Source of the DNA: Yuukianura sp. NJ FZ-2021
Lineage: Eukaryota
Direction: 5' to 3'
Assembly (NCBI GenBank): GCA_046563655.1
Contig: CM102284.1
Span: 930,001-994,000, forward strand
DNA length: 64,000 nucleotides
Below, piece by piece: positions 11,951 through 32,571 of the stretch. The position numbers and the translations under genes were made by a program. The notes below the pieces were generated by a model. That model made no database searches. It had not been told where the DNA came from and saw only the letters and a program-made list of their open reading frames with translations. Each line of letters opens with the position of its first letter. The stretch's first letter is position 1.

Positions 11951-14371
11951 ATGGATTTCAAAATACTGCTCATTTTAGCTCTCATTACACTTGGTTGCCT
12001 AACAACCGAGTCAACAGTGTTTCAAAATTTAAATTTCTACATAAGTAAGTACAGGGACTGCGGAGTTGTACTCTTGTTGAACTCAACCAACCAATGGGGA
12101 ACCAGCATTCAACCAATCAACGATCCCCTTTACATCAAGACAAGGTACGACAGACACACATTACCCAACTGGCGGAAATCTTTAAAAACGAAACTACCGT
12201 TTTGCCGCGTATTTTTCTTTTTGCTTGAATACATTACTCCTCAAAATTTTGAAACTTCTTTGAAGTTGTTGGAATACATAAACGTAGGTTCATCAAATCA
12301 AAGTGTGACGTTTATTGGGTTCACGATGCACAAACAAGAATCTTTTCAAAATTCATCTTTGAACATTCAAAAGAACAAAGGAACGCCAGATTCCTGTGTA
12401 TTGGTGATAGATTTCTCTGAAGGCCAAGCTCAAATATTGGATGCTAATACTAGCGTCACATACAGGTCAAAGGTCAAGGCCTTTTTAATTGGAAACGCAC
12501 CGCGCAAAAACAAACTTTTCAAAATTCCACTCGTTTGCCGCCTAATTTCTCCTGAAAAATGCTTTATCCGCCAAAAATTGAAATTGCACATCAGGCTTCA
12601 TCGAAACCGTGGCGGTTATTCTTCTTTTTTGATTCGGTCGAAGAATGCTTTTCCGTGTACCTCCGCTGACCAAAATTTGTTTAACATCACAGATTCCATT
12701 GCGCACAAATTTTATGGCCCACTATCCAACGTTCCTATGGCAACCAAAGCCCTATTTGGGAAGAGACGCCCTGGAAAATTTGGCACAATGTTATCATTTT
12801 TCGTGTTTATGGAAATGTTATCAGTCTCAGTTGGTTGCATGCAAGTGCATCCACTTCCATACGTTGAAATGAGCCAAAAAGATTTTTTTGAACATTTGGC
12901 AAAAACCGCTTTTGGTGACGACGATATTAATAGAAAATTTGAAATGAAATTCCCTTCTCAATATGTAAATCCTTTGTTCGATATAGTTCGAACCACGGAG
13001 GTCATTATTGTTGACATGTCAGAAATGGTATTTTCCACTTGCGATGGTATGTCAAAGTCATTTGGATTTGGAATTTACCTCACACCAATGGACAGCATGA
13101 GCTGGATATTCCTAGTTGCCATGACAACCGTCATCATCCCACTTGCTTTCACAGGAACAGCCATGTTCCGGAAATTACGCGGGAAAATAATAGTGAAACT
13201 ATTTTTGAATTCCTTTGTTTCATCGCTCTCCGCCGTTCTTGAAGTTTCTGCTGGCCTCACCGACAAATTTGTGGAAACCTTAAGTCTCGTTTTCTACTAT
13301 CGCTTGGTATTTGGTTCATTTGCTCTTGTGTTGGTGGTAATTGTGAATGGTTACAAAAGCTTCTTTACTGCCAGTATTTTGGCCCCACCGACAGCTACCC
13401 ACCAGTGGGACCTCGTCAATCAGCTCGAAGGATTTTTTATAATTGCTCGGAATTCGTACTTGGCGCTGCTCCTGGGGCGAGGAATGATTGTTCCTTCTTG
13501 TTGTTTTCTTGCAGAATGTAAATGCGAATCTATGGGTTATTTTCGCGGTGTTCGCAAAAGTCGACCAATGTCAGAAGAATGCAAACTGTGCGAAAAATAT
13601 CAAGAACATTTTGCTCATGTGCAACCATATGATGATCCGGTGGTTTCAGCAAATAACTGTGGAAAGGATGCAATTTCATCGAGATGGGATAACTATTTTC
13701 GGTGTATTTCTTTACCTTTAACAGAAATCCTTTCACATTCGCCTTTACAAAAACCAAAATATGTTGTTAAAAACACAGGGCAATTTTTTTCTTCTGCAGT
13801 TCTTGATTTTAACAAAAGTGTTATAACTAATCTTTTGGAAAAATGTGATCGCACAGTTTTGATCGACTATGACTACGCAGTGAAGCACTTTATAGCTGAA
13901 CTACTTTATAAAAAATTGGAAGCCGGTAATATCGAACAAGGCCTACAAGAATTTCCGATTTCAAAACAAAAACTCGTAGGAATGTGGGATCGAGTTATTT
14001 TTGAGCCGAAGTATAGGAGGGGTAGAGCTTACGTTAAAGGAGATTGGGGATTTGAGCACGACAAAATGATACTGAGGATGCACCAACTCATTGAGCATGG
14101 AATTTTTGAAATCTGGCGCAGAAATGATCAGGAGGAAGGAGCAGAGAATTTAGAAAAACACGAACAGGCAATAGCAAGGTACCGAAGTTTGCCGCAAAAA
14201 TTAACTTTGAATTTAAACATGGCGACGGCCATAATTCTATGGGTTGTGTGCGCACTACCATCAGCAATTATTTTTCTCATAGAATATTGCAAAGATGATA
14301 TTGCTATTAAGTTGATAACTACAGCTAAAAAAATTAGCATTAGTTTTTCGTCCATGAAAACGGAATCCTAA
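11951..14371 (+). CDS. Divergent IR-like membrane protein, copy 4 (intronless, 806 aa)
   Basis: Intact ORF with the same signal peptide, TM block and C-terminal motifs. Confidence 0.75.
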   Translation: MDFKILLILALITLGCLTTESTVFQNLNFYISKYRDCGVVLLLNSTNQWGTSIQPINDPLYIKTRYDRHTLPNWRKSLKTKLPFCRVFFFLLEYITPQNFETSLKLLEYINVGSSNQSVTFIGFTMHKQESFQNSSLNIQKNKGTPDSCVLVIDFSEGQAQILDANTSVTYRSKVKAFLIGNAPRKNKLFKIPLVCRLISPEKCFIRQKLKLHIRLHRNRGGYSSFLIRSKNAFPCTSADQNLFNITDSIAHKFYGPLSNVPMATKALFGKRRPGKFGTMLSFFVFMEMLSVSVGCMQVHPLPYVEMSQKDFFEHLAKTAFGDDDINRKFEMKFPSQYVNPLFDIVRTTEVIIVDMSEMVFSTCDGMSKSFGFGIYLTPMDSMSWIFLVAMTTVIIPLAFTGTAMFRKLRGKIIVKLFLNSFVSSLSAVLEVSAGLTDKFVETLSLVFYYRLVFGSFALVLVVIVNGYKSFFTASILAPPTATHQWDLVNQLEGFFIIARNSYLALLLGRGMIVPSCCFLAECKCESMGYFRGVRKSRPMSEECKLCEKYQEHFAHVQPYDDPVVSANNCGKDAISSRWDNYFRCISLPLTEILSHSPLQKPKYVVKNTGQFFSSAVLDFNKSVITNLLEKCDRTVLIDYDYAVKHFIAELLYKKLEAGNIEQGLQEFPISKQKLVGMWDRVIFEPKYRRGRAYVKGDWGFEHDKMILRMHQLIEHGIFEIWRRNDQEEGAENLEKHEQAIARYRSLPQKLTLNLNMATAIILWVVCALPSAIIFLIEYCKDDIAIKLITTAKKISISFSSMKTES

Positions 14372-14617
14372 ATTCAATTTCACACTAATGAATAAAAAAT
14401 AACCGAAGCACGAATCACATTTTATCGCTTCAAATCAAACATTCTGCACCAATTCTTGAAAGTGTAAAACTACTTTTTCTTCAGAAAAATATACTTCAAT
14501 TTAAGAACTTCGCAATCTACAAAAAAAAAAACAACTTCTTTTGCCATTAGATTTTGAGGCCTGAAGAAAAAATGTATTGCATTCACGGGTCACAAACAAG
14601 AATCATTTCATAGAATG

Positions 14618-14900
14618 TCATAGAATATTTGAAAAATGTTGTTAGTAAGTTGATAACTAAAGTTGAAAAAATTAGCAGTAGACAAGGCCCAATGAAAACG
14701 AAATTAAAAATGCACTTTCGACGCTTTTCAAGTAGCAAAAGAAAACATTTTAGCACTTGAATTAAAATACGCTACACATGAGCTATCCTTGTGATGAAAA
14801 AACTACACTTTTTTTTCGGAAAAAGTACATTTCAATCCGTGAACTTTAAAATTTGTGAGATAGCATCTTCTTTTGCCACTCAATTTAATTAGTTATAACG
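14618..14900 (+). pseudogene. 3' remnant of a deleted IR-like copy (last codons plus 3' flank)
   Basis: tcatagaatatttgaaaaatgttgttagtaagt matches the end of copy 3 (~11146 onward) and is followed by the homologous downstream flank. Confidence 0.7.
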
Positions 14901-15117
14901 TATTCTGCTAATTTTTTAGACAAAAATTTGTGCCTATCGTGTTTTAGTGCTGGTTCATGACTTGTTCCTTTAGTTGCATGCATCACGAGCGTTCGACCTC
15001 AAAACTTATGCAAACATCTTATTTGAAATGTTTTTTTTTTGTAAAAACAGAAACTATTTTCATATGCTTTCCGTGATTACGACAATTTTTTTTTAAGAAA
15101 TCGAAAAATGTATATCT

Positions 15118-15903
15118 AACTAGGATCTTCGGTGGCCTGCGGCCACCGAAAGATCCTAGTCTGTTGCGTACGTACCAGTTTGACGGACTATTTGTACAAA
15201 AAAACGATATCCCAATCGATAAATTAACAAAAAGATCGACCAAAAACAAAATTGGGTACAATTAGTTAGTATTTAGCTCACTTCAACCCGTGTGTTGTAT
15301 AAAAGGAGCAACTTGTCATGCGCACAGACGGTGGATGCGCAGCATGCACCCATCATGCAAATCTGAGGAGTGCGAAGGGTCCGGCCTTTAGCCAGACCCT
15401 GCTGAGGAAGAGGACACGAACACACACAGAGGGTTGAGGATAACTCCCCCTTATGTAGAAGATTGGTTATCATTATCAAACTACAAACGGTACTTCTTTT
15501 TCCGTTAACATGCTTTGGCGGTACAAATATGAATTAAAATAAAATCTGTTAAAAAAAGAGAACAACGACATAGTACAAAGTGTACTTCAACCGTCTTTCA
15601 GATGAAAAGTTCTTTTCCGAGGAATAGTCATCCACAAACTTCCCGGTCAGAAAGACGTTATGTCACCCTGATTGTACCCCGAATTGTACATGTGGTTGGT
15701 TTGCCTAACCTAACACTAAATCGATTAAAGTAGGAGCTAAGTTAGGTAACTCAACAAATTATGGAATGTATTTGATTGTTCAGTTGACATACAGTGTGGT
15801 TTAGTAAGAAGTATTAGTTGAAGGGAACAATGACACAGTACAGTGTGTACGTCAGCCTTCTCTAATGCTTTTGGGCCTATGGCCAGACTGACAAACATCT
15901 TGT
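15118..15903. mobile_element. Helentron-associated (HINE/DINE-1-like) non-autonomous insertion upstream of IR-like copy 5
   Basis: Absent from the homologous upstream region of copy 4 (~11800). Starts with a near-perfect hairpin actaggatcttcggtggcc-tgc-ggccaccgaaagatcctagt and ends with a short stem-loop (ggcctatggcc). Family call is tentative. Confidence 0.5.
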
Positions 15904-16032
15904 AATATGTATATGATATGAAGAACTCACGAACATATCTACATATCTCAAACTTATTATTTTTGGCAGTCCTTGCTCTGCTCGCCACCGAAGAACGCCT
16001 TGGCATGCTAATCTCCGTAGTTAAGTCGAGTA

Positions 16033-16936
16033 CGTATTTTCCCTAATAGTACACCATACCTAAATAGTACACCAGGTCCCTAATAGTACACCAGGTCCAG
16101 GGCCCGAAAAATTAATTAGTACACCGTCCCAAATAGTACACCAGGTCTCTAATAGTACACCGGGTCTTTGGTAATACACCCAAGGAGTATGCCCAGTGTT
16201 GCTGTATGCTTAAACATCCAGTGGCTTAATCCATCCGGATATCCAATAGACTAAATGGGGTTGTAGTGGACGGTAAATGCAACAAATTAAAAATTCAGCG
16301 GAGTTCAAATAAATTTAAGTTAACTATTATAAAATAATTTATTTGCATTTTAAACCGTCTCTTGATATGCGCACCCATTGACGAAATATCGAAAAAGTGG
16401 ATTTCCAGCAACTCTGAGTATACGCCTACTGGAAAAGTTTGGCTATATTTAATTAAATTTTACAGTGTTGGTGGATGGATAAAATACTTCTTCCACTTCC
16501 CTCGAAAGTAGTGATATATCCGGATTTTCTTGGTTTCTTCCGGACGAAACTCAATTTCGTCCATCTGAAACTGGATTTCATCCGGATTTATCCATTTATC
16601 CAGTGGATATATCTTGGACGAAATGCTCAAAAAGTGGATATCCACCAACACAGTGATTAAATACAACAGAAATAACATTAATGTTCTTTCTATCTTGTTC
16701 CTACACAACCAATTCTACAAAATACACATCATTTACAGGCTTCTTTAAAATTTTTACAAGCAAAATTCGAATATTTCTTGCGTAATTTCAATGAGAGGTT
16801 AGTAAAAAATAATAAGCTTTTTGGAAAAAAGAATTATTACACCGTCCCTAATAGTACACCAGGTCTCTAATAGTACACCACCCCCAGAAGTCGAAAACAA
16901 AATTAGTACACCAGGTGTATTATTTGGGAAAATACG
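16033..16936. mobile_element. Tc1/mariner-superfamily (pogo/Tc2-like) MITE with nested hAT MITEs
   Basis: TIRs cgtattttccctaatagtacacc / ggtgtattatttgggaaaatacgg, TA target duplication (empty site gagTAcat in copy 4), internal aatagtacacc repeats. Ends ~42 bp upstream of the copy 5 ATG. Confidence 0.8.
16194..16653. mobile_element. Two adjacent hAT-type MITEs of the cagtgttg family (~16194-16416 and ~16463-16653)
   Basis: Termini cagtgttgctg...tccagcaactctg and cagtgttggtggat...atccaccaacacag with many ggatatcc motifs. Same family as 55873-56279 and 60240-60633. Confidence 0.6.
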
Positions 16937-16978
16937 GTACATAAAAAACACTAATAAACAGTCCAAATATTCTGCAAG

Positions 16979-19450
16979 ATGGATTTCAAAATTCTGCCCA
17001 TTTTAGCTCACATGACACTAGGTTGCTTAGCAACCGAGCCAACAGTGTTTCAAAATTTAAATTTCTACATAAGCAAGTACAGGGAATGCGGAGTTGTACT
17101 CTTGTTGAACTCAACCAACCAATGGGAAACCAGCATTCAACCAATCAACGATCCTCTTTACATCAAGACAAGATACGACATAAACACACTACCCAACTGG
17201 CGGAAATTTGTAAAAACGAAACTACCGTTTTGCCGCGTATTTCTCTTTTTACTTGAATACATTACTCCTCAAAATTTTGAAACCTCTTTGAAGTTGTTGG
17301 AACACATAAACGTAGGTTCATCAAATCAAAGTGTGGCGTTTATTGGCTTCACGATGAACAAACAAGAATCTTTTCAAAATTCATCTTTGAACATTCAAAA
17401 GAAGAGAGGAACGCCTGATTCCTGCTTATTGGTGATAGATTTCACCGAAGGCCAATGTCAAATATTGGATGCTAATACTAGCGTCAAACACAGGTCAAAG
17501 GTCAACGCCTTTTTAATCGGAAACGCACCACGCAAAAACAAACTTTTCAAAATTCCACTCGTTTGCCGCCTAATTTTTCCTGAAAACTGCTTTACCCGCC
17601 AAAAATTGAAATTGCACATCAGGCTTCATCGAAACCGTGGCGGTTATTCTTCTTTTTTTATTCGGTCGAAGAATGCTTTTCCGTGTACCTCCGCTGACCA
17701 AAATTTGTTTAACATCACAGATTCCATTGGGCACAAATTTTATGGCCCACTATCCAACGTTCCTATGGCAACCAAAGCCCTATTTGGAAAGAGACGTCCT
17801 GGCAAATTTGGCACAATGTTATCATTTTTCGTGTTTATGGAAATGTTGTCAGGCTCAGTTAGTTTCGTTCAAGTCCATCCGGATCCATACGTTGAAATAA
17901 GCCAAAAAGATTATTTTGAACATGTGGCAAAAATGTCCGTTCGTGGCAAGAATATTTTTACAGATTTTGAAATGGAATTCCCTTCTACGAAATCCGTAAA
18001 TCCTTTGTACGAAAGCGATCTAACCACGGAGGTCATTATTGTTGACGTGTCAGAAATGGTATTCTCCACTTGCGACGGTGTGTCAAGGTCACTTGGATTT
18101 GAAATTTACTTTACACCAATGGACACCATGAGCTGGATGTTCCTAGTCGCCATGACAACCGTCATCATCCCACTTGCTTTCACAGGAATGGTCGTATTCC
18201 AGAAATTAGGCGGGAAAATAATAGTGAAACTATTTCTAAATTCCTTCGTCTCATCAATGTGTGCCGTTCTTGAAATTTCTGCTGGTCTCACTGACAAACT
18301 TGTGGAAACCTTGAACCTCTTGCCCTACTATCGCTTGATATTTGGTTCATTTGTTCTTGTGTTGGTCGTAATTGTGAATGGATACAAAAGCTTTTTCACT
18401 GCCCTTATTTTGGCCCCACCGAGAGCTACCCACCGGTGGGACCTCGTCAATCAGCTCGAAGGATTTCTTATAATTAATCAGAATTCGTACTTGATACTTG
18501 TCATCCAGCAAGAAATGATTGCTCCTTCATATTGTTACCCTGTAGCATGTAAATGCGAATCTATGGGTTATTTTCGCGGTGGCGGAAAGTTTCATATAGT
18601 GCTCAACAAAACTCGACCAATGTCAGAAGATTGCAAATTGTGCGAAAAATATCAAGAATATTTTGTTCATGTGCAACCTTATGATGATTCGGCGGTATCA
18701 CCAAATGACTGTGGAAATGATGCAGTTTCATCGAGATGGAATAACAATGTTCGGTATTTTTTCTTACCTTTAACAGAAATTCCTTCACATTCGCCTTTAC
18801 AAAAATCAAAATATGTTGTTAAAAACACAGGGCAATTTTTTTCTTTTGCAGTTCTTGATTTTAACACAAGTGTAGTAACTAATCTTTTGGAAAAGTGTGA
18901 TCGCACAGTTTTGATCGACTATGACTACGCAGTGAAGCACTATATAACTGAACTACTTTATAAAAAATTGGAAGCCGGAAATATCAAACAAGGCCTACAA
19001 GAATTTCCGATTTCAAAACAAAAACTTCTAAGAATGTGGGATCGAGTTATTTTTGAGCCGGGGTATCAACGGGGTGCAGCTTACGTTAAAGCAGGTTGGG
19101 GACCTGAGCACGACAAAATGATACCAAGGATGCACCAACTCATTGAACATGGAATTTTTGAAATCTGGCGCAGAAATGATCACGAGGAAGGAGCACAGAA
19201 TTTAAAAAAACACGAACAGGCGATAGCAAGGTACCGAAGTTTGCCGCAAAAATTAACTTTGAATTTAAACCTAGTGACGGCCATGATTCTATGGGTTGTA
19301 TGCGCACTACCGTCTGCAATTACTTTTCTCATAGAATATTGGAAAGATGATGTTATAAAGTTTATAACTACAGCTAAAAAATTAGGATTAGAATTCGTCC
19401 ATGAAAAACGGAATCTTAAATTCAATTTCACACTAATGAATAAAAAATAA
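16979..19450 (+). CDS. Divergent IR-like membrane protein, copy 5 (intronless, 823 aa)
   Basis: Intact ORF, closest to copy 4 in the N-terminal and S2-like regions. Confidence 0.75.
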   Translation: MDFKILPILAHMTLGCLATEPTVFQNLNFYISKYRECGVVLLLNSTNQWETSIQPINDPLYIKTRYDINTLPNWRKFVKTKLPFCRVFLFLLEYITPQNFETSLKLLEHINVGSSNQSVAFIGFTMNKQESFQNSSLNIQKKRGTPDSCLLVIDFTEGQCQILDANTSVKHRSKVNAFLIGNAPRKNKLFKIPLVCRLIFPENCFTRQKLKLHIRLHRNRGGYSSFFIRSKNAFPCTSADQNLFNITDSIGHKFYGPLSNVPMATKALFGKRRPGKFGTMLSFFVFMEMLSGSVSFVQVHPDPYVEISQKDYFEHVAKMSVRGKNIFTDFEMEFPSTKSVNPLYESDLTTEVIIVDVSEMVFSTCDGVSRSLGFEIYFTPMDTMSWMFLVAMTTVIIPLAFTGMVVFQKLGGKIIVKLFLNSFVSSMCAVLEISAGLTDKLVETLNLLPYYRLIFGSFVLVLVVIVNGYKSFFTALILAPPRATHRWDLVNQLEGFLIINQNSYLILVIQQEMIAPSYCYPVACKCESMGYFRGGGKFHIVLNKTRPMSEDCKLCEKYQEYFVHVQPYDDSAVSPNDCGNDAVSSRWNNNVRYFFLPLTEIPSHSPLQKSKYVVKNTGQFFSFAVLDFNTSVVTNLLEKCDRTVLIDYDYAVKHYITELLYKKLEAGNIKQGLQEFPISKQKLLRMWDRVIFEPGYQRGAAYVKAGWGPEHDKMIPRMHQLIEHGIFEIWRRNDHEEGAQNLKKHEQAIARYRSLPQKLTLNLNLVTAMILWVVCALPSAITFLIEYWKDDVIKFITTAKKLGLEFVHEKRNLKFNFTLMNKK

Positions 19451-19709: not shown

Positions 19710-20200
19710 CAAATGATCATGAGGAAAGCGAAAGGGAATTAAAGAATTATGAACAGACTATAGCGAAATACCGAAAGTTGCCGCGCAAATTGACTTTGAA
19801 TATAAACCTAGGGACGGCCCAAGGTAAATAGAATACTACTAGGTAGTGCGAATGGGAACTTTGTTTGGTTGCCATGTCAAAAAAAATGACGTCACTCGCT
19901 GAAAAATACCGGAATTCTGCTCATTATTGATGGTGTCCTAGGGTGTCCTAGAGAAACCCGTATGACACATTTTGTTTACATAGATGCCAGCGGGTTCCAT
20001 TTTCACGATTACGGTATTTTTTCAGCTGGTGACGTCACAAACAAAAATTGCGTTGGTTGCTATGGGCGCCATTTGCAGGGGGCTGAGGACGGCCATGATT
20101 CTCTGTCCTGCATTTATTTATACAACATGCAGCAATTATTTTCGTCATGGAAAACTGGGAAAATATTGTTAAAGCGAAAAAATTTAAAAAGTTAGTAGTA
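19710..20200 (+). pseudogene. C-terminal remnant of another IR-like copy, split by an insertion
   Basis: Encodes ..YEQTIAKYRKLPRKLTLNINLGTA, then resumes (gccatgattct..gcaattatttt) after 20094 with indels. Confidence 0.75.
19820..20086. mobile_element. 267-bp insertion with an 8-bp target-site duplication
   Basis: ggacggcc at 19812-19819 and 20087-20094. Internal inverted pair tgacgtcactcgctgaaaaataccg / cggtattttttcagctggtgacgtca. No clear terminal IR. Confidence 0.7.
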
Positions 20201-20593
20201 TAAGTCATGCAACGAAACACTAAAATGCACTAGCTGAACCTTCGAAGATGAATAACCACACATTTTAGCACTTGAAATAAAGTATTGTGCGCAATAACAA
20301 TTCTTGTGATTCTAAACCTAAACTTTTCATTTGAAAAATAAACACACACGAAAAAAAAATCCACATTTTTCTCATTCAAAACTTAATTTCATAAATTTTT
20401 GCAAAATTTTGAAACCTGAAAGTTGATAGAGGCTTTGCGAGGAGAATTCGAAAAAGTAGCAGCATATTCATCTCAATTTTGTATGTGTTGTCGAATTTTA
20501 CTTTTGACAGAAGTTGACATCAAAATAAAATTTTTCACAAATGCCAATTTGTCTCAAATCTGTCCAATAAAACTACTAAAATTCTCCTGTTTT

Positions 20594-22903
20594 TCATGCA
20601 ACTGACGACGACTTCTTTTGACTCATGACGCGAAGACAAAACTTTTTCTCAACTCCACCTTCGAGTGTGTTGGGCACAATAACGTATTTTCCCGGTTTCA
20701 GCGTAAATCCAAGCGTGTAGCTCTTCATTGCCGTCGGAGGAGCTTGCGTATGTCCCACCGGAAACACTTCCTTATGACTCCGGAAGTAGTCTGCGTCGTA
20801 GTTCCTTGCATCATTCGCCTAAAACCACAAATTTCATATAAAATGTTACAAGTTTAATAAAATATAATATAAAATAATACAGAATATCATGAGTTTCGAC
20901 AACTTCACCTCAAACAACCGAATGCAAAAACACTCCCCGTCGTCCAAGTCCAAAAGCAGTTTTTGCTGAACAGTCACCGACACAATGAGGACACAAAGTC
21001 CTCCAGCGTCGGAATCAAGTTCCACTGGATAGTACGGACTTTGGTCCGGATGTTCTAAAAAAAAAACAAATTTTGTTAACTTTTTTTTTTTTTTAAACTT
21101 TTTCAAAAAGTAGTTTCAAGGTCACTGACCCCATCCCCCTGCAGTTCGTTTCTCATTACTCCACTCATCATAGTACTGCCTAAACCTCAACTGTGAACTC
21201 GGCTGACTGATCAATTCATGGTCAAAGTAAGTCGCCGAAGAGAGGTCACAGAAGTGATGCAAAAAGTCATCAAAAGACATCCAGAATTCACCGTCCTCTT
21301 TTTCAATCATGTCAAGCGACCGCTTCTGTCGGACACTCACGCACTTCCAAAGTGAAGAACTGTCACACCACGACCCCGTCCACTCCGTATTGCCCCAAGG
21401 ATTGCGCAGACGCAGCAACTTTACTGGCTTGTCATGCCCACTCTCGTCTTTCATCGTCACTGTCTTGGCTCCGGTGATGGAATAAGCATGGTTTGATACA
21501 ATACCGTTCTGAAATAAGTTGATAAAATATAAATATACCATATTTATCGGCGTATAACGCGCACAGGCGTATAACATGCACTGAGATATCATTTGAAGAA
21601 GTCTCTAAAATAAGGCTAATTTTGCCCATTTCTGTAGTTTGGAACTGTGGAAACGGCAGATAACGCGCGCATTATACGCCGATAAATAGGGTAATTGATA
21701 AAATTGAATTAATTAATAATTAAAATAGTATATTTAATTATATTAAATGTGTAATTTACTCCGGGTGTCCTGGAAGTAGCTCCGTTGACACTGTCTTTGC
21801 CAAGCCAGGCGACAATGTCTTGAAAAAGATGCGTGGGAACTCCATTGTCGAACATGACGCATTCACCAAATCCTCCAGTAAGTGCCTCCAGAGCGTACAT
21901 TGGAACGTTGGAGGCAATGTTGCAGTAATTTCCATTGAGTCTAAACAAAAATATGTAATAATATATAAATTATTTTATGTTATTATAAAAAAAAACTTAC
22001 TTGGCAAAAGCTTTCTCCACCAGCATTGGCCAGAACTCAGCTTTGCCATCGTTGATGAAAAAGTTGCAGCCAAGGATGTTGTACTTCTCACCGACGACGA
22101 AAACCGGAATAAAGTCGTCCACAACCAAGTCAACCCAGACACCTTGGTACCAAAACCTGAAATCAAAATTATGAAAAAAACTTAGAATAAAATTTTGAAA
22201 AAGTTTTGAATTTTTAGAAATTTGGACTTCTAAGTACCGGAAATGATACACTCCAGAGTCGTTGGTCGTGTTGTCCTTGGGAATGACCATTTTAATAAGT
22301 GATTTGACCATGCTCACTGCTGACAACGAGCATAAAAACCAACAGTCGCCAGTCAACCCCTGTTGAATGTCCATCCGACCAAGAACTTTTCCAACGTCGC
22401 CACATTTGAAACACGGTGTATATTTTCCTTTGTGCATCTTCTTACAGAGCTCCTAGATACAAAAAAAAAAACAACAAACAAAAAACTTGAGTTTTAACCC
22501 AAATTTTTATCAGTTTTTTTTTTGAAAATCGTTTGCCGTGATTCGAATCCAACTCGTGCGTCCATTCCACCCTTCGTTCCTCCATCCCTGGACCATATCG
22601 GCCACGTCCGGATTGGCAGTATCCAGCAGTTGGTCGATGCTGCCAATACTTTCTTCGGAGTGCGGGAACTCTGGATCTTGGTAAATGGCGCCATCGTACT
22701 GTCGGAGTAGATCTGGATACGACTGGGTCTGCCGGTAGATACTGCGCAGGTCCGTCAGCTTCTCCAGTTCTGGGTCTCCATACTGTTTAGAAAAATTACA
22801 AAAACGAAACAAAAATTTTGTTCAAAATGTTATTTGTAATGAAAGAAATATTATTTTTAAATCTTACATAGTAGACGTTGTTTCCGTGAATTGAGTAGGC
22901 CAT
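20594..22903 (-). CDS. Atypical calpain (CysPc catalytic domain plus calpain III/C2L domain, no penta-EF-hand), about 8 exons
   Basis: Catalytic triad motifs QQGLTGDCWFL, NHAYSITG and LRNPWG; also WVDLVVDDFIP, EFWPMLVEKAFAK, DGEFWMSFDDF; domain III end LKPGKYVIVPNT..FCLRV then stop at 20596-20594. ATG at 22903 opens a 36-bp exon. Confidence 0.88.
21538..21691. mobile_element. 154-bp pogo/Tc2-like MITE in a calpain intron
   Basis: TIRs ccatatttatcggcgtataa / ttatacgccgataaataggg, flanked by TA on both sides. Confidence 0.8.
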
Positions 22904-23769
22904 TTCTTTTATTTATGTGGAAATTTTGTAGGTCAAAGGTCAAATCAAAAATTTAACTAACGTTAGGCTGTGCGGACGACTCAAGCTGAAGTGATTACCC
23001 AGTGCAGGAAACCAAAGGGAATTCAAAAAACTGGGAACGTGGAGGTGTAATTTACACCGCAATTGCTAATTAAGATTAACTCATTAAGTAGTCGCCGATT
23101 TCCGTTTCAATTTTCATGGCCTCCAGACATCAAGACATTTACCTGTGAGAATGGTCTTAACACCGAAAAAAATTGAAAAACAATTTTGAAAATTATCGTT
23201 ACTACATTAGTTTGAAACCTTTTGATTTCCCTAGAAAGTTAAGAAATCGTCACAAATATGAAATATGAAGATTTTGTACAGAACAGAAATTTTTTATTAA
23301 AATTTGATTCAAAATAGAATTAGACAACTTAGCATAAACTATAAAAACTGTATCATATTCTGTTCTTATTAAAATATAGATATTTAGTGTTTATTTTTTT
23401 TTTCACAACAACATTATGATGAAATATTTAGCTTGTCAATCCTATGTATATTTTTAAAATTTTGTAAAGAATAATTTAGTAATCGTAAAGTTAAACTATG
23501 GAAAAGGATACCTACAGAGCATAATATCACAATAACGTACAGTAGTTAACTCAAGGGGTCATGTCAATGCAAGCGATATTGTGTTAAAATATAAGCCGGA
23601 GAAATTATAGCGAACGGACCTATAAATTTTTTAGCTGTGTAGTACATTTTTCTATTGATTTAGCGCTGTTTTCTATAGGGCTGATTCACTCATGGTTTTA
23701 CAAAAAATGAAAACACTTAAGACATCGGGGAGACATAGCGCCAATTGCGCTTACTCTGGTTAGGCTTCC

Positions 23770-23955
23770 CGAGCATGGTATGAAAGATACAAAAGCAGTA
23801 ACACCAAGGTTTCACATGGAACACGTATATAGTTAGTGCTAGGTTTGCTTGCTATCACCTTCTATGCACCGAGATATTTTTGGAAAGAATTTGAACAGGG
23901 GAAAATGAGGATGCTGACGGGAAAACTCCGTCCAATAGTTCTGGGAACATCATAG
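23770..23955 (+). pseudogene. Innexin fragment (TM2 and following loop), decayed
   Basis: Manual translation LVLGLLAITFYAPRYFWKEFEQGKMRML matches the innexin motif FYxPRxxWKxxEGGK. Frameshift just upstream, stop just downstream, YYQW not recognisable. Confidence 0.65.
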
Positions 23956-24064
23956 TGATCCTATGTCACGTAATTATATGTAAGGTGTAAGGTGAGGTGT
24001 CACGTAATGATTTGGGGTTATTTTTCCTAATCTAACCTAATTCAACCGTTCTATTTCTCATCAT

Positions 24065-24425
24065 ACTGTTGAACGTATTGTGTCTACGTTAAATGATGAA
24101 AATACACTGGCAAACAAGAAACCTCCTGGACGACCGAGAACTGCAACTGGACTTCAAAATCGTATAGCCCTTGTGCAGATATGCGAGAATTCGGTGTGGA
24201 ACCAACAACCACTAACCACGTCCGAAACTGGTGCTCAGTTGCCTGGTCCATGTTCACAAGATTCGGTCAACAGAATTATGAAACTGGAAAAGATTAAATC
24301 TTATCGGATTCAATCGCACCAAAAACTTAAACACACGGATCATTTTCCTAGAGCAACGTTTTGTGAGGGCATGATGTAACGCCAACACAACGACCCGGCT
24401 TTGTTCCGACATATTTGTTTGAGCA
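24065..24425 (+). pseudogene. Tc1/mariner-superfamily transposase fragment (HTH and linker region)
   Basis: GRPRTA...SVNRIMK...SYRIQSHQKLKHTDHFPRATFCEGMM*RQHNDPALFRHICLS follows the pattern preceding the first catalytic Asp. In-frame stop, truncated. Confidence 0.7.
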
Positions 24426-24558
24426 CATACAATACAGCAATGTGTTGTATGAGTAGAGTAACAGCTAATAAGATCTTTGAACCTTTGGTAGTCACAAAAA
24501 TCCGTCCTACGCCTCAGCTGAACGCATAATTACGGTTTTCATGAGCAGGTAGTCATAG

Positions 24559-24728
24559 ACAGCACCGCCGACGTCAAGCGAAGACTTCCAGCAACAAATT
24601 GACCCTAGTATGATTTTTAAATTCCCATAGGAAGTTGAAAAGTAAATATTAAAATCTATAGAAACGAACCACCACAGCACCGCCGACGTCAAGCGAAGAT
24701 CTCTACCAACAAATTTGATCAGATAGTA
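24559..24728 (+). repeat. Direct duplication of a ~50-bp unit (acagcaccgccgacgtcaagcgaaga...)
   Basis: Identical 26-bp core at ~24559 and ~24674 followed by similar tails. Confidence 0.8.
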
Positions 24729-25267
24729 CAACACCTAATGAGTTGAGAAAAAGATCTGATGACAAAATTGGATTCGTGGAAACAGGCACTCAGACACAAG
24801 AGAGGAGCAGAACAAACGCAGAGTTGGAAAGATGGTTGCGAGAACAGTAGCCGCCGTAACTTTGGCTCGAGTTGGTTGCTGGAGCTGTATCAATTGTAAA
24901 TAACCAAGCAAATCTAAACAATTTGGCTTCTACGCCGCCAAGTTCAACTGTGTTGTCATAGAAGGAAAAAGTGTAACCAAGAGGCATTGTTGAAATAGGA
25001 GAAATAAAGGGTGCCACTTCTGCCTTCACTACCCCTTTCATTTACACATTAAAAAAAAATGAGAAAAAGAATGGACTCATGGAGTTGGAATAAGTACATT
25101 TACACCAAATACATTACCGTTGGGGTATTGGACAAGGTTTTTGAATTTACCCATAATTGAGATTACGGATTTGCTAAGCTATTCAATAAAGTAATTGTCA
25201 ATTTCATAATATATTAATAACCATAATTACCTAAGTGTTAGATCCACCCTCGGACTCTGCACAAAGG

Positions 25268-25420
25268 GAAATCGAGTACACAGTCTATCTTCAAAGCCCA
25301 GGTGAAATTGTTTTCACTTTGCCTGGTTGCATGTACATGGTATTCAACATGGAGTATACTTGTAAGTTTGATCTAACTTATATTGAATTGATGGATGTTT
25401 AGCGAAGCGTTCCACTCCGG
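25268..25420 (+). pseudogene. JmjC-domain (KDM4/KDM5-like) C-terminal fragment
   Basis: EIEYTVYLQSPGEIVFTLPGCMYMVFNMEYT resembles QxPGEFVxTFPxxYHxGFN. It is followed by a short gtaagt..tttag intron-like stretch and EAFH. The metal-binding His is replaced. Confidence 0.5.
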
Positions 25421-25816
25421 AGACTCCGTCTTACTTCTCTGCAAAAGGTAATTGCCCGCAAAGTTCTCTCGCTTATGGATTTGAAGTTTCATAATAGCCC
25501 TCAGACTTAAATATTAGTTAACCTCTAAAATGCTACGTAAGCATTTCCCGTTGCAAGGTATGCAAGATTGTAAGATTCATTTACCAAGCTTGGAACCCAA
25601 AGGCACCAACTATTAGGCATGAAGCCAAAACTGATCATAAGAAGTTCTTCTACATTGTTGGCGGTCTAACCTATAACTTTTCAAGTCGAAGTGGTTCTTA
25701 AATACTCTGGCATTCAAACCACACCTATATAGACCTCAACTATATTCAGTAAAAAAAATTAGAGGTCTATGTGAATCTAGTTGTATTCCGTAGTATCAGC
25801 CCATGAACGCTGACAC

Positions 25817-26158
25817 ACATTGGCGACCGTGACAGAAGAACCTACAATCTTTCAGAAAGATGGATTTATATAATGTTTATTCGCTGAGGCGTACAAAAAA
25901 GTTACATTACATTTGCCATACCTAGTTTCTTGCATCGATGAAGAAGGAAATCTTGTCATTTAATACTCGACATTGGCGACCGTGACAGAAGAACCTACAA
26001 TTCACCAAAGCAAAGGATGTCCGAAGCAATGTACCTTTTATCTTTTCCGCAATGACTAAAACAGAAAACACTGACAATTAAATATATGATTATGATGATA
26101 GCGACATGAATATCACATAATCGTAAACATTGGCGACCGTGACAGAAGAACCTACAAT
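25817..26158 (+). repeat. Array A: three identical 32-bp repeats separated by unrelated 121- and 125-bp spacers; repeat is tRNA-Arg PBS-like
   Basis: acattggcgaccgtgacagaagaacctacaat at 25817, 25970 and 26127. Confidence 0.9.
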
Positions 26159-26231
26159 TCATCAAAGACAGTGTCTTCGAGAACAAAGTGCGATATAGAA
26201 TGGTGAGAATACTTTTACACTCTCTTCAATA

Positions 26232-27192
26232 CCCTCACAAATGGAGCCTCAGTCGGGAACTCATCTGCTGACCACGCTAACAAGTGCTACAATCTTTCGC
26301 TGATGCTTTTAATATCTTACTACTACGGAATGGGAGCGGCCGTGAATGTGTTATCCACAAAGGGGGAACAAGATACTTGGTATGAACGCGGAAATCTCAA
26401 GGATCTGGTAAAGAATTACTACAAAACTGTGTGTGATGCATGTTCAACTATTTAACCCCCTCAAATGGAGCCTCAGACGGGAATTCAACTGCTGATCTGC
26501 GATTATCAAACAACATTCGCTTTTCAATACATTAGGATGGAGTACTTAGGAACTAAGTGTAGGACGCGTTGGAATGTTTTAAAATTCGTAACAAGTCGAA
26601 ACAAGCTCTGTTATACTATACATGTTATATTACTTAAACCTCTCAAATGGAGCCTCAGACGGGAATTGAACTGTTGATCTTCGATTATAAAATGACCATC
26701 TTCTCTCGCATGCGTAGCTCACGTCGGAACGTTTCAGAATTCGAAGCAGTCAAAGCAATCTCTGTTACGACTGTTTATAACTTAACCCTCTCAAATGGAG
26801 CCTCAGACGGGAATTCAACTGTTGATCCTCGCTTATAAAATGACATTCTTTTTTCACTACATCAATACAAGTACCAGCGAAGCAAGTCGAGGCAAACTCC
26901 GTTATACTATACACTGTTTACTACTTAACCCTCTCAAATGGAGCATCAGACGGGAATTCAACTGCTGATCAAACTCTAAAATTACTTGATTTACAACTAT
27001 AACTTAATGGCTCGCAGAATTCACAAGCTTGCTGTATTAACTCTCAAAACATTGCGTTAGTTTTCTTCAACTGAAACCGACAATTGTTTGTCGAATACAC
27101 TACAAATCACTATGGAGTTTGGTAGGTACAGTAAAGCAAAGTACTGTAGGTAGGTAAACCTCCACAAATGGGCGCTCAGCCGGGAAATAAAC
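26232..27192 (+). repeat. Array B: six ~40-bp repeats (consensus ccctctcaaatggagcctcagacgggaattcaactgctgatc), tRNA-3'-end-complementary, period 143-230 bp
   Basis: The TGG of each copy is at 26242, 26466, 26648, 26796, 26939 and 27169. Outer copies are more diverged; inner spacers are distantly related to each other. Confidence 0.88.
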
Positions 27193-27645
27193 ATGATAGT
27201 AGCGATTCAATACAAGTCTTTACGTGGAATCCAAATCTTTGAGTGTATTACAATGAATGAGAAATATTTGCCAACTGCGAAACTCCTAGAATAAGTAAAA
27301 CGCTCTGTAAAGGCTTGTTTTACTCGTGTAACTAGTTAGTTAAAACCATTAGGAGAATTAGGGCGAGTTGCCCATAAGACTGCGACCGTTGTCTCCTTGC
27401 AACGAAAAAAAACATTGACGTGTCAAGGTGGGACTTCTTTTTTACAGGGTTCCGAAAAACCTATTAAAAGTTTTGAACCTATTCCAATTGAACAAATAGC
27501 CGACATTCATTTCAGAAAATTCCGCAGAGACTCGAATGGGAGCAGAATAATTAATCTATCGCCGAAGCTGATGGATCGGTTTTAAAAGGCTCGGCCAGAA
27601 GCATAAAAATCGAAAAAGTTGCCACATCAGGTGCATGGTCTGTGA

Positions 27646-27700
27646 CCAGTGATTGGTCTTGCCAGTGATTGGCTTGGGCAGCCAGAAATGGGCTATATAA
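27646..27700 (+). promoter_or_regulatory. Pol II promoter-like module: two inverted CCAAT boxes plus TATA box
   Basis: ccagtgattgg at 27646 and 27662; tatataa at 27694. Confidence 0.4.
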
Positions 27701-27844
27701 CCAGTGCTTTGGTGCACATTGTCTCGGTTAGGTCGGTAGGCCCATCAGGCAACGTTTCATCCCGAAATGATAGGAAATTTTTTCAACCATACCCAGTAAC
27801 ACCATGATGTCGGCAATAGTTAGTTCTCTTCAAGATTGAGGATA

Positions 27845-28740
27845 ACTTTTGATTTCGTGATTTCGCGTTGGGTGATTACAGCATCAACTATCATCATCTG
27901 GGAAGTTCGAGATACTGGAGAATCATTCTACCATCATGTGTATAAGAATGTATTAACGCAACACTTTTTGATTTTAAGACTTCGCGTTGGTTCATTACAG
28001 CATCAACTATCATCATCTGGGAAGTTCGAGATACTGGAGAATAATGCTAGAATCATGTGTATAAGAATGTATTAACTTGCTTCAGTTACCCGCAACACTT
28101 TTTGATTTTAAGACTTCACGTTGGTTCATTACAGCATCAACTATCATCATCTGGGAAGTTCGAGATACTGTTGAATAATTCTACCATCATGTGTATAAGA
28201 ATGTATTAACGCAACACTTTTTGATTTTAAGACTTCGCGTTGGTTCATTACAGCATCAACTATCATCATCTGGGAAGTTCGAGATACTGGAGAATAATGC
28301 TAGAATCATGTGTATAAGAATGTATTAACTTGCTTCAGTTACCCGCAACACTTTTTGATTTTAAGACTTCGCGTTGGTTCATTACAGCATCAACTATCAT
28401 CATCTGGGAAGTTCGAGATACTGGAGAATTATTCTACCATCATGTGTACAAGAATGCATTAACGCAACACTTTTTGATTTTAAGACTTCGCGTTGGTTCA
28501 TTACAGCATCAACTATCATCATCTGGGAAGTTCGAGATACTGGAGAATAATGCTAGAATCATGTGTATAAGAATGTATTAACTTGCTTCAGTTACCCGCA
28601 ACACTTTTTGATTTTAAGACTTCGCGTTGGTTCATTACAGCATCAACTATCATCATCTGGGAAGTTCGAGATACTGGAGAATTATTCTACCATCATTTGT
28701 ATAAGGATATACTAACTTACTTCATTTACCCGGCAAGACT
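27845..28740. repeat. Tandem repeat of about 7 monomers alternating 134 and 119 bp (253-bp higher-order dimer)
   Basis: gcaacacttttt anchors at 27958, 28092, 28211, 28345, 28464 and 28598. A 15-bp segment (ttgcttcagttaccc) and diagnostic substitutions alternate between monomers. Confidence 0.92.
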
Positions 28741-29282
28741 TTATCTGATCAGCATTAATAGATCTGTTCTCTCAAGGTTGAACAAAATAAGCAGAAATAG
28801 AATAGTTGTAGGTTAGGTCGCAATAAAATAGTCGGCGTAATCGCCAACTGGTGTTTCTGCCGGATATCCCGCCCCACGCTCCCTCCCATACCGATTCGAA
28901 ATAATTTATCCTTAGTGCTATAATGGTGGGCTTTAAAGTTCCGCATTTAGAACCGAAAAGGTCAAATCAAGCACTAAAGCACTAACCTTACCCCTCGAGT
29001 TAAACTTGTACCTTATAACTTATAACAAGTATTTTTCTATAACTTAAAACAACTTAACCTACAGTATTAGATTTGTAAATATATAAATATTGACAATACA
29101 AAGAATAGCAACCTGTCGTTTGTAAACTGCTTGTTATCATAAATCATCATTTTGACATTGCAAGATCATGACGATGGAGTCTTCGAAGATGACAAACTGC
29201 ATCTTGTCTTCCGCATCAACTCAACAACGGTGACTGGAGTTCACCATGAAGTCACCCTCGCCGGAGTAAAAGTTCAGTTACC

Positions 29283-30363
29283 TTACGTTGCTGACTGCTT
29301 GTAGTTTTTGGTTTGAACCATCTTCACTCCACACATCGCACAGATACCTGAAAATGAAAGTTACAGCATAAAAACATTGAACACTGAAAAAATTTAAAAA
29401 CGATTAAAAGGCACAGATACTACTCAAGGTTACATTGTCGTTCTCGTTTCTGAGGCAGTAAAACTTTTCTCAAAGTTTTTTTTTTTGATACAAATGTTCG
29501 GGTGCCCACTTCGCTTTTGGGTTGATTTAAACCAATTGATTGAAACAGAGGTTTAAATCAAGTGGTTGTTAAAAATAAAAAGCGTAAATTCCTAAGACAA
29601 TTTGAATTTAAAGTGCACAAGCGAAAAGAAATTGAAAAACCCTAGAGCTTTTTGAAAAAAATTGTCAAAGTTAATGGTGTTTACTGTTTTGTTTTACTTC
29701 ATACGGCTATTTTGATGCTTGCTTAGGTTGCATGACTTTTTTGTGCGTATTTGACAATTTCAAATTGAAATTTTAACTAAATTTTGGTCTAAACAAAAAA
29801 AAAGCAACTAAATACACGTTTATGTCTTGTTTAAACGAAAAACCAATCAACCCTGGTAAAATGGCTGGGTACGTACAATGACACCAGCTCTCAAAAATTT
29901 GAACGGTTGGAAAACGTGTAGCCGCCCAAGTTTACTTCAACCAAAATTTTACCTAGCAATCTAAAATACAACGTAATTACCTTTACTGTAGGCACAAGGT
30001 TGGCAGTAGTGAGATCCAGCCTGATGTACTTTTTGTTTACAAATTCTGCAGGAATCGAACTTGGTCTGATAAGGGCTGAATCTGGCCTTCTTCGAAGACA
30101 GCAGTTTGTTCTCACCAACCTGCAAATTAAACAACGTTAGTTAGTTAGACGATGAGTTTATGCACACTAACTTTTAGAAAAAGAAAACAAAACTTCAGAA
30201 ATAAATCGACATACTACTTATTCAGAAATGAAATCAAAAATTCAACTGTTTGTAATTTACATACCTTCCGCCCTCCTCCTTCCGTCGTATTTCTCGCTCC
30301 AGTTTTCCATGGATCTGGGGTTATGACCTTCCCCAACTTCTTTTCGCATTTATCACAAACCAT
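29283..30363 (-). CDS. CRIPT: Cysteine-rich PDZ-binding protein, 100 aa, 3 coding exons (30363-30265, 30119-29981, 29347-29283)
   Basis: Manual splice gives MVCDKCEKKLGKVITPDPWKTGARNTTEGGGRK/VGENKLLSSKKARFSPYQTKFDSCRICKQKVHQAGSHYCQPCAYSK/GICAMCGVKMVQTKNYKQSAT*, with GT-AG introns in correct phase. Missed by the ORF track. Confidence 0.96.
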
Positions 30364-30652
30364 GGATGGATACCAAATGTCGTCACGTTGACTGTGCTTA
30401 TGAGGCCGTACTGCTGCTTTCTCTATCTGGTCTGTATGTATCTTCTAAAACAATTAGCAACTGAACAGATTACATTACGCTTCAATTACGGAAAGTTCAA
30501 ACGAGAGACAACTTTAGAGAGACCACTTAAGTTATGATGTTATGCTTGTGCATGCTGTTCACAAAATGGCGAATATGAGTGATCTAACCTTCAGAGAGAT
30601 TCCACTTTCCACTCCCACCTCCCACTCCCACAAGAGCGCTCCCAAGAATTTA

Positions 30653-31401
30653 TGGGGTGGTGTTGCAAAAACTCAAATTTTACACGTACGAAAATTTAAA
30701 CGCAGTCTGTCATCTTCACACCTCCTAAAAAATATATATCGATGATACTAATAACCTTGTAAACCACAGTGACACTTCAACGTCAATTGTTTTTAATTTT
30801 TGTTTATTAAACTAGCGTTTCTCGCGACGGTTATGATTTTTATGAATTTTCTTTTCAGTTTGACTTTTCCAGCAGTACCAAATTCTTATGTCAAATCAGC
30901 ATGACTGCCTTCTATAATTTGGCAAATAAAACTAGCATTTATAAAACTAGTTTTTCTAGGATTATAGATTCATTTTTTGCATGTTTAGAGTTGTAATTAT
31001 GGAAAAACTTGAGTGCTACGTTGCGTGTGGAAAAGGCCGTTAAGGGTAGTACGACAAATTTAGTCCTTCCATATCACAGCCCTGAAAAGTACTGTTGTTT
31101 ACCAAAAATTACATTACACCCATGTTCTAAATAAATATGCTATAGGATCATAAAGGCCTCCAGCAGCATGAAGAACAAGTATTTAATGGAACAGCTTGAA
31201 AAACAACTATTAATTAGAGAAATTTAACTAAAAAAAATGAACTTGAAGTGTCATTTTGTAAGACTCTCCTCAGGTCAACAAGGAGGATTATTGATAGTTT
31301 TTTTTTTATAGAAGAACTTGTTATACTTTTTGAAGTTTGAAGACAAAGTACGTTTAAATTTTCGTATGAGTAAAAGTTAGCTCTTTTGCAACACCACCCC
31401 A
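30653..31401. mobile_element. ~750-bp MITE with long degenerate TIRs
   Basis: tggggtggtgttgcaaaa...tacgaaaatttaaacg at the left end and its reverse complement at ~31350-31401; TA on both flanks. Confidence 0.75.
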
Positions 31402-32571
31402 TAAACATTCTGTTCATAAAAGATACTTCAGGGGTGTGAATAATGGAGTGGAGCCGATTGCAAGACCACTTCGGCTGATCGATAAGTGGTGTCTTTCGGT
31501 GAGTGATGGACGAATGGTAATATGTACTTACGCTGGATTGGGGTGATGGGGACGAGTCGTGATAATCATGGATGTCAAAAATATTTAGTCCCTTTCCCCG
31601 AAATGTTAACAGAGAAAAAAATATGTGCGGTTTATTTATTACTAAATATTTATTTATTTTCCCAGGGGTTTAATGTTAAATAAGTATATTTGGGCGATTT
31701 TTTTAAAATATTTTTTTGTCCAAATTTTGGGGTTTTTAGCACATATTTTTGGCAACCCTGGTGATAATATACGAAGCGAAGTGGCCATATGGATTATTAC
31801 CAACGGACAACTTTACTGTCTCGTATAGCTGTTTCTTGTTATAGGGCTTTAGTTTTTAGAAATGACCTTCTATTTCTGTCTCGTTTTTCGAAAATTCCGG
31901 AGCCAAGAAACTCAAGGATTTTGTGTGTTTGCTCGATTCATTCCTTTTTAAAAATACATTTTCGAATGGCTTGGCTTCCACCTTTTCGAAATTTCGAATG
32001 GAATTGGCATTTTTTTTTCTTTTGAACAAACATTTTTTTTGTTCCTGAAAAGTAAACTATACAGCTCTTGTCCTTTGTTAAATTTTAAAACCGTGGGAAA
32101 GGTTTCCTAAGCCAAATTCCCTAGAAATCTAAAAATAATTTGAAAAAGACTCCAACTTGTCGTGCAAGTCGAATGGTTTCAAAATTTATGAGGGACCTTT
32201 CCAACCATGAAGGAAGACTTCAAAAAGCTACACATTTCAAAGTATGGTGTTATTTCGTTTGTTAACTTTTGATCTGAATTGAAGATCAGTGTGAGATGAT
32301 TTGGCAATAAGATAACCAGTGTGGCTACAGTTATTACAGGAAATGTGCGGTGGGTGGCGTGGTTTTGTTTCACTCTTTTTCGTTTTCAACTTCACTAAAT
32401 ACTCCTGAATCCTGCAAGGAATCAGAATGTGAAAGAAGTTCGCCCGCAAACAATTGCAAAAAAATGTACGGTTTTGTCATGAGTCGAACTCTGCTAATAA
32501 TAGTAACAAGATTTTAATTTAATTCCTCACGCGATCCTCAACTAAATGCCTAACGGTTTGACTGATCAAGA

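What the first reader, a model, noticed from the sequence alone, without database searches (positions are those of the whole stretch)
26232..27192. Array B repeat has exact tRNA acceptor/T-arm geometry but homologous spacers: a second specificity grown by duplication
Seen: the reverse complement of copy 3 is GTTCAATT-CCCGT-CTGAGGC-T-CCA, i.e. G53 plus T-loop, 5-nt T-stem, 7-nt acceptor strand, discriminator and CCA at canonical spacing. The last copy (TGGGCGCTCAGCCGGGA, 27169) is close to the recalled tRNA-Pro PBS TGGGGGCTC(A/G)xCCGGGA. Inner spacers share motifs (gattataaa, caagtcga, gttatactatac) with large indels. Inference: old tandem duplications in which only the tRNA-complementary core was preserved; the cognate tRNA is uncertain.
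Basis: partly seen in the sequence, partly recalled or inferred. Interest (0 to 1): 0.7.

Follow-up and report, generated by a model that had tools for sequence, protein, structure and literature searches.

The report
Array of proline-tRNA-binding retroelement repeats
Six repeats in an animal genome are imperfect copies of the site where retrovirus-like elements bind the host's proline tRNA; they changed more slowly than the DNA between them, which hints at an RNA that captures tRNAs or tRNA fragments, but neither transcription nor function is shown.

Summary
The repeats are real. All six cores best match the CCA end of this host's own tRNA-Pro (15-16 of 18 nt; 20-21 of 24 plus one G:U in copies 2-4), so the cognate tRNA is settled. 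It is the primer of live LTR elements in this genome. The tRNA 'geometry' is only the complement of a 3' strand: no 5' partner strands exist and only copy 3 keeps a canonical T-loop. Every copy has a non-wobble mismatch at positions 4-6, so they are poor primer sites. Conservation is not flat: a ~48-nt block (LTR-end-like CA-AA, core, short hairpin) beats homologous spacers (Fisher p 0.0008-0.036). Only spacers 2-4 are homologous. The locus is single in the assembly, follows three tRNA-Arg repeats (noted earlier by this scan, e1-7393122) and precedes one old LTR-like piece; no LTR pair or purine tract. Best reading (0.45): PBS-derived, duplicated, non-priming tRNA/3'-tRF-binding modules kept by selection in a retroelement-derived RNA. 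Main rival (0.3): a dead remnant homogenised by recombination. Expression could not be tested.

The parts
26242..26265 (+). Array B core 1: complement of mature tRNA-Pro 3' end, 15/18, mismatches at 4, 6, 12
26466..26489 (+). Array B core 2: 16/18; 20 WC + 1 G:U of 24
26648..26671 (+). Array B core 3: 16/18; 21 WC + 1 G:U of 24; the only copy with a canonical T-loop complement
26796..26819 (+). Array B core 4: 16/18; identical to core 2
26939..26962 (+). Array B core 5: 15/18, mismatches at 4, 6, 7
27169..27192 (+). Array B core 6: 16/18, mismatches at 5 and 12; hairpin arm lost; overlaps an AATAAA at 27186-27191, the only one on + between 25401 and 27900
26226..26273 (+). Example (unit 1) of the ~48-nt conserved block: C-rich end in CA, then AA, core, and an 8-nt arm that folds back on core positions 8-15
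26490..26938 (+). Spacers 2, 3, 4 (158, 124, 119 nt; cores 3 and 4 lie between them): mutually homologous with large indels
26266..26465 (+). Spacer 1 (200 nt), no significant homology to other spacers
26963..27168 (+). Spacer 5 (206 nt), no significant homology to other spacers
25817..26158 (+). Array A: three identical 32-nt repeats complementary to host tRNA-Arg-TCG (15 nt perfect, then extended past the T-loop); same strand, 111 nt before core B1
27324..27760 (+). Single diverged LTR-like piece, related to the 560-nt LTR of a Ty3/gypsy-type family of this genome; boundaries approximate
25271..25360 (+). JmjC-domain fragment upstream of the arrays (broken gene piece); link to the arrays not shown
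   Evidence: Pfam PF02373, E 1e-6
24753..24993 (+). Intron-less copy of two exon pieces of a gene on contig C3; part of a stretch that one other sample lacks

Best explanation
Array B is six copies of an LTR-end/primer-binding-site module that came from a tRNA-Pro-primed Ty3/gypsy element. Steps: (1) the core is a reverse-transcribed copy of a mature tRNA end, since it includes the CCA complement that the host genes lack [shown]; (2) it was multiplied by tandem duplication [shown for units 2-4, inferred for 1, 5, 6]; (3) a ~48-nt block was held while spacers drifted [statistically supported]; (4) on a plus-strand RNA each block can anneal tRNA-Pro or its 3' fragments through tRNA nt 69-59, often to nt 53, but mismatches next to the CCA make it a poor primer site [computed, inferred]; (5) with array A it would form a nine-site, two-specificity tRNA/3'-tRF-binding RNA, serving as auxiliary tRNA-binding sites of a non-autonomous element or as a decoy [inferred, untested].
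For: Best host match is tRNA-Pro for 6 of 6 cores among 48 distinct 3' ends; whole-assembly pattern searches found no gene with a better end. 13 of the first 18 positions are invariant and all 13 pair; 3 of positions 19-24 are invariant and all 3 pair. 12 loci elsewhere carry the perfect Pro site; 2 of the 3 examined for it sit behind a 5' LTR with a 95-97.5% identical partner, and two others are 37- and 39-nt tRNA-Pro cDNAs, a precedent for copies longer than 18 nt. The CA + 2 nt + TGG context equals that of a real element here. Core vs homologous spacer: 23/24 vs 75/99, 24/24 vs 71/95, 23/24 vs 65/88; Fisher p 0.020, 0.002, 0.014 (the three pairs are not independent). In public contigs a ~9% diverged version has 25 substitutions and 6 gap letters over 26154-26427 and none listed in 26233-26267, and unitigs of two runs meet there on a shared 31-mer; chance 0.011-0.021. 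The hairpin uses G:U pairs on the plus strand (88% of cells paired vs 19-52% when slid). An LTR-related piece follows on the same strand.
Against: No evidence of transcription. No compensatory change in the hairpin (0 of 7 pairs), and copy 6 lacks it. All changes within positions 1-18 break pairing with the tRNA; predicted binding is -14 to -22 kcal/mol against -29 and -32 for two real sites. The upstream 16 nt are also conserved and do not pair with tRNA. The locus is single in the assembly. No source family was found: the best post-PBS likeness (L099) has p=0.007, 1 of 10 tested, about 0.07 after correction. One search showed only 40 of 347 difference rows, so a change inside the block could be hidden. 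The block was chosen because it is conserved.
Confidence: 0.45

Rival explanations
1. Functionless remnant: a decayed PBS region was duplicated, and the blocks look conserved because of unequal exchange or gene conversion between short similar tracts, plus ascertainment.
For: Single locus among debris (transposase-like piece, intron-less gene copy, JmjC fragment, old LTR piece, satellite). Fixed non-wobble mismatches. No covariation. A joint going back 68 nt at 26511 suggests unit-number change between versions.
Against: Units 1, 5 and 6 keep the same block while their spacers are unrelated; conversion would have to stop at the same edges each time. Invariant positions are those that pair with the tRNA. 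The unit-1 block shows no listed change in a 9% diverged version although that core is unique in sequence.
Confidence: 0.3
2. The minus strand is the working one: it carries mimics of tRNA 3' ends, a source of antisense small RNAs against the PBS of Pro- and Arg-primed elements, the site they cannot easily mutate.
For: Both target sites exist in live elements of this genome. Read this way position 4 becomes a G:U in 5 of 6 copies. An array-A unit lies antisense, after env, in an 18-kb Ile-primed env-bearing element present twice.
Against: No tRNA-like fold in cis. The hairpin and the invariant position-20 wobble work on the plus strand only. That element has no significant B unit (p 0.045-0.95 over 12 tests), and 0 of 17 post-env regions of related elements hold an array.
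Confidence: 0.12
3. A cluster of DNA protein-binding sites (silencer or enhancer) derived from the PBS, as for the mouse PBS-Pro repressor system (recalled, not tested).
For: Explains a conserved block wider than the tRNA match and indifference to pairing.
Against: Does not explain two different tRNA complements side by side or the position-20 wobble; no binding data.
Confidence: 0.07
4. A tandemly arrayed TRIM, or a CRISPR-like array that gains spacers at a repeat.
For: Repeated LTR-end/PBS junctions at 140-230-nt spacing; spacers 1 and 5 unrelated to the others.
Against: No purine tract in spacers 2-4 (longest run 4-5 nt), no shared LTR in all units, no target-site duplication found, no dispersed copies. 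Spacers 2-4 are duplicates. A 37-nt piece of spacer 5 matches other contigs in public runs but no second place in the assembly.
Confidence: 0.04
5. Bacterial origin: integration-site copies of a bacterial tRNA-Thr(GGT) end.
For: 1 of 55 metagenome hits matches copy 3 over 24 of 24 nt; 4 of 55 are tRNA-Thr(GGT) genes.
Against: A scan of 241 million records yields such matches by chance; 0 of 55 share the upstream CAAA context; copy 6 and array A fit host tRNAs; the neighbourhood is intron-rich animal DNA.
Confidence: 0.02

Closest known systems
Primer-binding site of tRNA-Pro-primed Ty3/gypsy LTR retrotransposons (present in this genome)
   Same: Complement of the mature tRNA-Pro end including CCA, 2 nt behind a CA.
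   Different: Six copies instead of one; mismatches at positions 4-6; match runs on to nt 53; no 5' LTR, no gag-pol.
Bipartite or multipartite PBS of Ty3, Ty1 and Drosophila Gypsy (PMC1635307, abstract and sections 19 and 22 read)
   Same: Extra, non-priming tRNA-binding sites in a retroelement RNA; Gypsy's lies near the 3' end and bridges RNA ends through the tRNA.
   Different: Those are single 11-nt sites for another region of the element's own primer tRNA. Here nine near-full-length acceptor-end complements of two tRNAs lie in tandem.
[quoted passage not shown]
   Same: Imperfect PBS remnants can still be bound by 3'-tRFs without a perfect seed.
   Different: Described as single sites in mammals, mainly in lncRNAs and 5' UTRs; the passages read show no arrays ('tandem' occurs 0 times in the text).
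Tandemly arrayed TRIMs (PMC4717578, passages read); Helenus/Ajax TRIMs (PMC10886601, parts 1-3 of 6 read)
   Same: Short non-coding units with repeated LTR-end/PBS junctions.
   Different: No alternating LTR and internal region, no purine tract, no target-site duplication, no dispersed family, no Pol III tRNA promoter.

Membership tests
Functional PBS of an LTR retrotransposon | Complement of a host mature tRNA 3' end with CCA | tested here: met
   15-16/18 to tRNA-Pro in 6 of 6 copies
Functional PBS of an LTR retrotransposon | Unbroken pairing at the primer's 3' terminus | tested here: not met
   mismatch at positions 4 and 6 (5 copies) or 5 (1 copy)
Functional PBS of an LTR retrotransposon | Lies directly behind a 5' LTR that has a 3' partner | tested here: not met
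   CA-AA context present, but no LTR pair in 20000-32000; the downstream LTR-like piece has no upstream partner above shuffle level
Tandemly arrayed TRIM | Alternating LTR and internal region with PBS and polypurine tract | tested here: not met
Tandemly arrayed TRIM | Dispersed copies with target-site duplications | tested here: not met
   single locus in the assembly; these searches give lower bounds
tRNA gene, pseudogene or tRNA-like structure | Cloverleaf or T-arm/acceptor fold in cis | tested here: not met
   ARAGORN 0 genes; no Rfam match below E 0.45; no partner strands
Auxiliary (3') tRNA-binding site as in Gypsy/Ty3 | Anneals tRNA without priming, in the element's RNA | not testable with these tools
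   binding energy only computed
Auxiliary (3') tRNA-binding site as in Gypsy/Ty3 | Located upstream of the 3' LTR in sense orientation | tested here: inconclusive
   LTR-like piece about 130 nt behind core 6, same strand, but no purine tract before it and 340 nt of it are skipped in a diverged version
3'-tRF target or sponge RNA | Transcribed, and bound by tRNA fragments | not testable with these tools
   no usable RNA data
CRISPR-like array | Unique spacers of even length from foreign DNA | tested here: not met
   119-206 nt, three are duplicates; no source found

The most novel reading that the evidence does not exclude
Arrays A and B form one transcribed, selected RNA with nine modules matched to the two primer tRNAs (Arg-TCG and Pro) of retroelement families active in this genome. 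It acts either as a multivalent non-priming tRNA/3'-tRF trap (plus strand) or as a source of anti-PBS guides (minus strand): a programmable layer of the host-retroelement conflict aimed at the primer step, which gains specificities by capturing and duplicating PBS modules.
Probability: 0.2. Interest if true: 0.8.

Novelty: new variant of a known kind. Interest (0 to 1): 0.45.

Why it matters
The primer step is the one sequence that LTR elements must keep, and tRNA fragments exploit it in mammals. A natural multi-site, two-tRNA array would be a ready test of whether invertebrates or their retroelements build decoys or guides for this step. I found no description of such an array in nine full-text searches (open-licence PubMed Central and bioRxiv only). 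If it is only a remnant, it shows how PBS duplications can imitate CRISPR-like arrays.

Tried and rejected
Expression: no RNA holder listed among 5 runs; the 4 runs laid are contigs from 2 samples and show presence only; this says nothing for or against transcription. A perfect cognate tRNA: none; of 14 other loci with the 12-nt core, 11 are a hairpin arm inside an unrelated LTR family and none is a tRNA gene at the match. Relatives in viral contigs: 0 hits for 2 patterns; metagenomes: 55 single hits, none an array. Known RNA families or ribozymes: none. B-like motif in the env-bearing element: not significant. Homology of array-A spacers to that element beyond the core: not significant (best p=0.054 of 6). 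Arrays after env in related elements: 0 of 17. Arrays inside the family related to the downstream LTR piece: 0 of 3 internal regions. Source locus of the spacer-5 piece: not found. A search for relatives of the JmjC fragment was not completed, so its origin is open. The host species was not identified.

Full report
Setting. The window is G000:C2:930001-994000 of a 98.7-Mb animal assembly in 22 contigs. The finding lies in a 6-kb intergenic stretch without long open frames.

Observation. Six repeats begin with TGG at 26242, 26466, 26648, 26796, 26939 and 27169. It is the only copy with a canonical T-loop complement, and no copy has the 5' strands of a T-arm or acceptor stem. ARAGORN finds 0 tRNAs in the window and Rfam nothing below E 0.45 in 24400-29000.

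Cognate tRNA. A pattern search of the whole assembly gave 7 one-mismatch hits outside the window (100 of 802 rows shown, all 0- and 1-mismatch rows among them). Four are intron-containing tRNA-Pro genes (TGG twice, AGG, and one I read as CGG although ARAGORN labels it Thr), two are tRNA cDNAs, and one is an isolated 3' half. I compared the cores with 48 distinct 3' ends from 59 of 60 genes called in the loci I held (50 of the 58 Rfam hits plus the loci; one Ala gene dropped for lack of a recognisable T-loop; His, Met and most Leu and Val are missing). tRNA-Pro was best for 6 of 6: 15, 16, 16, 16, 15, 16 of 18. No gene with a perfectly matching end exists among 14 other loci with the 12-nt core. 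Only the 9 array cores reach 15/18 in the window; shuffles give 0.2. The genes lack CCA, so the repeats descend from a copy of the mature tRNA (inference from established biology).

Retroelement link. Twelve other loci carry the perfect Pro site. Ten look like LTR ends; 2 of 3 examined with long flanks have LTR pairs of 97.5% and 95.2%. Six loci carry the Arg site of array A. The CA-AA-TGG context of array B equals that of an Ile-primed element here. None of these families shares flanking sequence with array B; the closest post-PBS likeness is weak (p=0.007, 1 of 10). About 130 nt behind core 6 begins a piece related to the LTR of another Ty3/gypsy-type family: 83% over 54 nt (E 1e-8) and local alignment scores of 187-198 against shuffle maxima of 143-157. 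It has no partner upstream, and 3 of 3 internal regions of that family hold no array. So the locus is retroelement-derived but is not an intact element.

Conservation. Identity peaks at core positions 1-18 (0.89) and stays high from -20 to +32, then falls to 0.33-0.37. Spacers 2-4 are homologous, 1 and 5 are not. Within the homologous trio the core and the 48-nt block exceed the spacers (Fisher p 0.002-0.020 and 0.0008-0.036). Thirteen of 18 positions are invariant and all pair with tRNA-Pro; the variable ones are 4-7 and 12. No change within 1-18 is a G:U. Positions 25-32 fold back on 8-15 with position 12 bulged, in 5 of 6 copies, using G:U pairs of the plus strand, with no compensatory change. 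Public contigs show the array in two samples: one contig of X4 spans 26132-27800 with 48 substitutions and 27 gap letters, and sample S1 also holds a ~9% diverged version whose unit-1 block shows no listed change (40 of 347 rows visible; chance 0.011-0.021).

Mechanism. All six copies are mismatched within positions 4-6, next to the CCA. Predicted binding of the 18-nt tRNA end is -14 to -22 kcal/mol, against -29 and -32 for two real sites. What is kept is the part that anneals to tRNA nt 69-59 and often to nt 53. I therefore favour non-priming tRNA-Pro/3'-tRF-binding modules on a plus-strand RNA (0.45). A single AATAAA on the plus strand falls in copy 6, which fits a transcript ending there but proves nothing. 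Rivals: homogenised remnant (0.3), minus-strand anti-PBS guides (0.12), DNA binding sites (0.07), tandem TRIM or CRISPR-like array (0.04), bacterial tRNA-Thr sites (0.02).

Against my reading. No transcript data; no covariation; weaker binding than real sites; conserved upstream bases that do not pair with tRNA; one locus only; three non-independent pairs behind the statistics; 0 of 17 post-env regions and 0 of 3 internal regions of related families hold arrays; the B-like motif in the env-bearing element is not significant.

Known systems. It works like the extra tRNA-binding site of Drosophila Gypsy, which anneals tRNA without priming (PMC1635307; abstract and sections 19 and 22 read), and like PBS-derived 3'-tRF target sites (PMC12853362; passages), but it is a member of neither by test. 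It fails the tandem-TRIM features (PMC4717578; passages) and is not Helenus/Ajax (PMC10886601; parts 1-3 of 6). PMC13524379 (passages) gives PBS lengths of 8-18 nt for such elements. No supplements were read; those of PMC12853362 and PMC13524379 could list multi-site loci. Nine searches found no described multi-PBS array (listings only).

Verdict. Real, tRNA-Pro-specific, PBS-derived and partly duplicated; probably under some constraint; function unproven. New variant of a known kind; interest 0.45.

Noticed in passing
G000:C10:542645-542687 and C9:883660-883695 (L002, L003): One array-A unit (89% over 47 nt, TGG interrupted) lies antisense about 680 nt after env in an 18-kb Ile-primed Ty3/gypsy element with F-type env, dUTPase and exonuclease-like frames; two copies, 96% identical. 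Related elements lack it.
   Followed up: partly
L097 (G000:C5:574580) and L095 (G000:C3:5595504): tRNA-Pro cDNAs of 39 and 37 nt with the CCA complement, one fused directly to an LTR end; read-through past position 58 that stops near position 37 (the stop at a modified base is inference).
   Followed up: partly
L059 (G000:C6:5885778-5885855): A variant tRNA-Pro gene is followed, 37 nt later, by an isolated T-arm plus acceptor 3' strand of the common tRNA-Pro.
   Followed up: no
window 24746-25115: Stretch holding the intron-less copy of a C3 gene piece; a contig of run X4 joins across it, so it looks like a polymorphic insertion.
   Followed up: partly
window 27015-27051: 37 nt of spacer 5 match other contigs with unlike flanks in 3 of 4 runs, but no second place was found in the assembly.
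   Followed up: partly
window 24400-27800: One sample holds a near-identical and a ~9% diverged version of the locus, with large flank indels (24726-25452, 25512-25638, 27290-27631) and probably an extra unit; allele or unassembled paralog is unknown.
   Followed up: partly
L233, L238, L240, L243-L250: An LTR family has a hairpin arm that matches the tRNA-Pro site at 15 of 17 nt, about 600 nt inside the LTR; no other likeness to the array.
   Followed up: partly
window 27847-28742: Young satellite of alternating 119- and 134-nt units, 96% identical at period 253, right behind the LTR-like piece.
   Followed up: no
window 1619-19450: Five tandem intron-less open frames of 709-852 aa; the one tested has no Pfam match.
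   Followed up: no
window 44800-64000: A second five-copy tandem gene cluster on the minus strand, period 3.3-5.8 kb.
   Followed up: no
L265-L274: LTR family whose LTRs appear to begin TATG and end CATA rather than TG...CA, with a primer site matching no tRNA of my incomplete set above 12/18.
   Followed up: no
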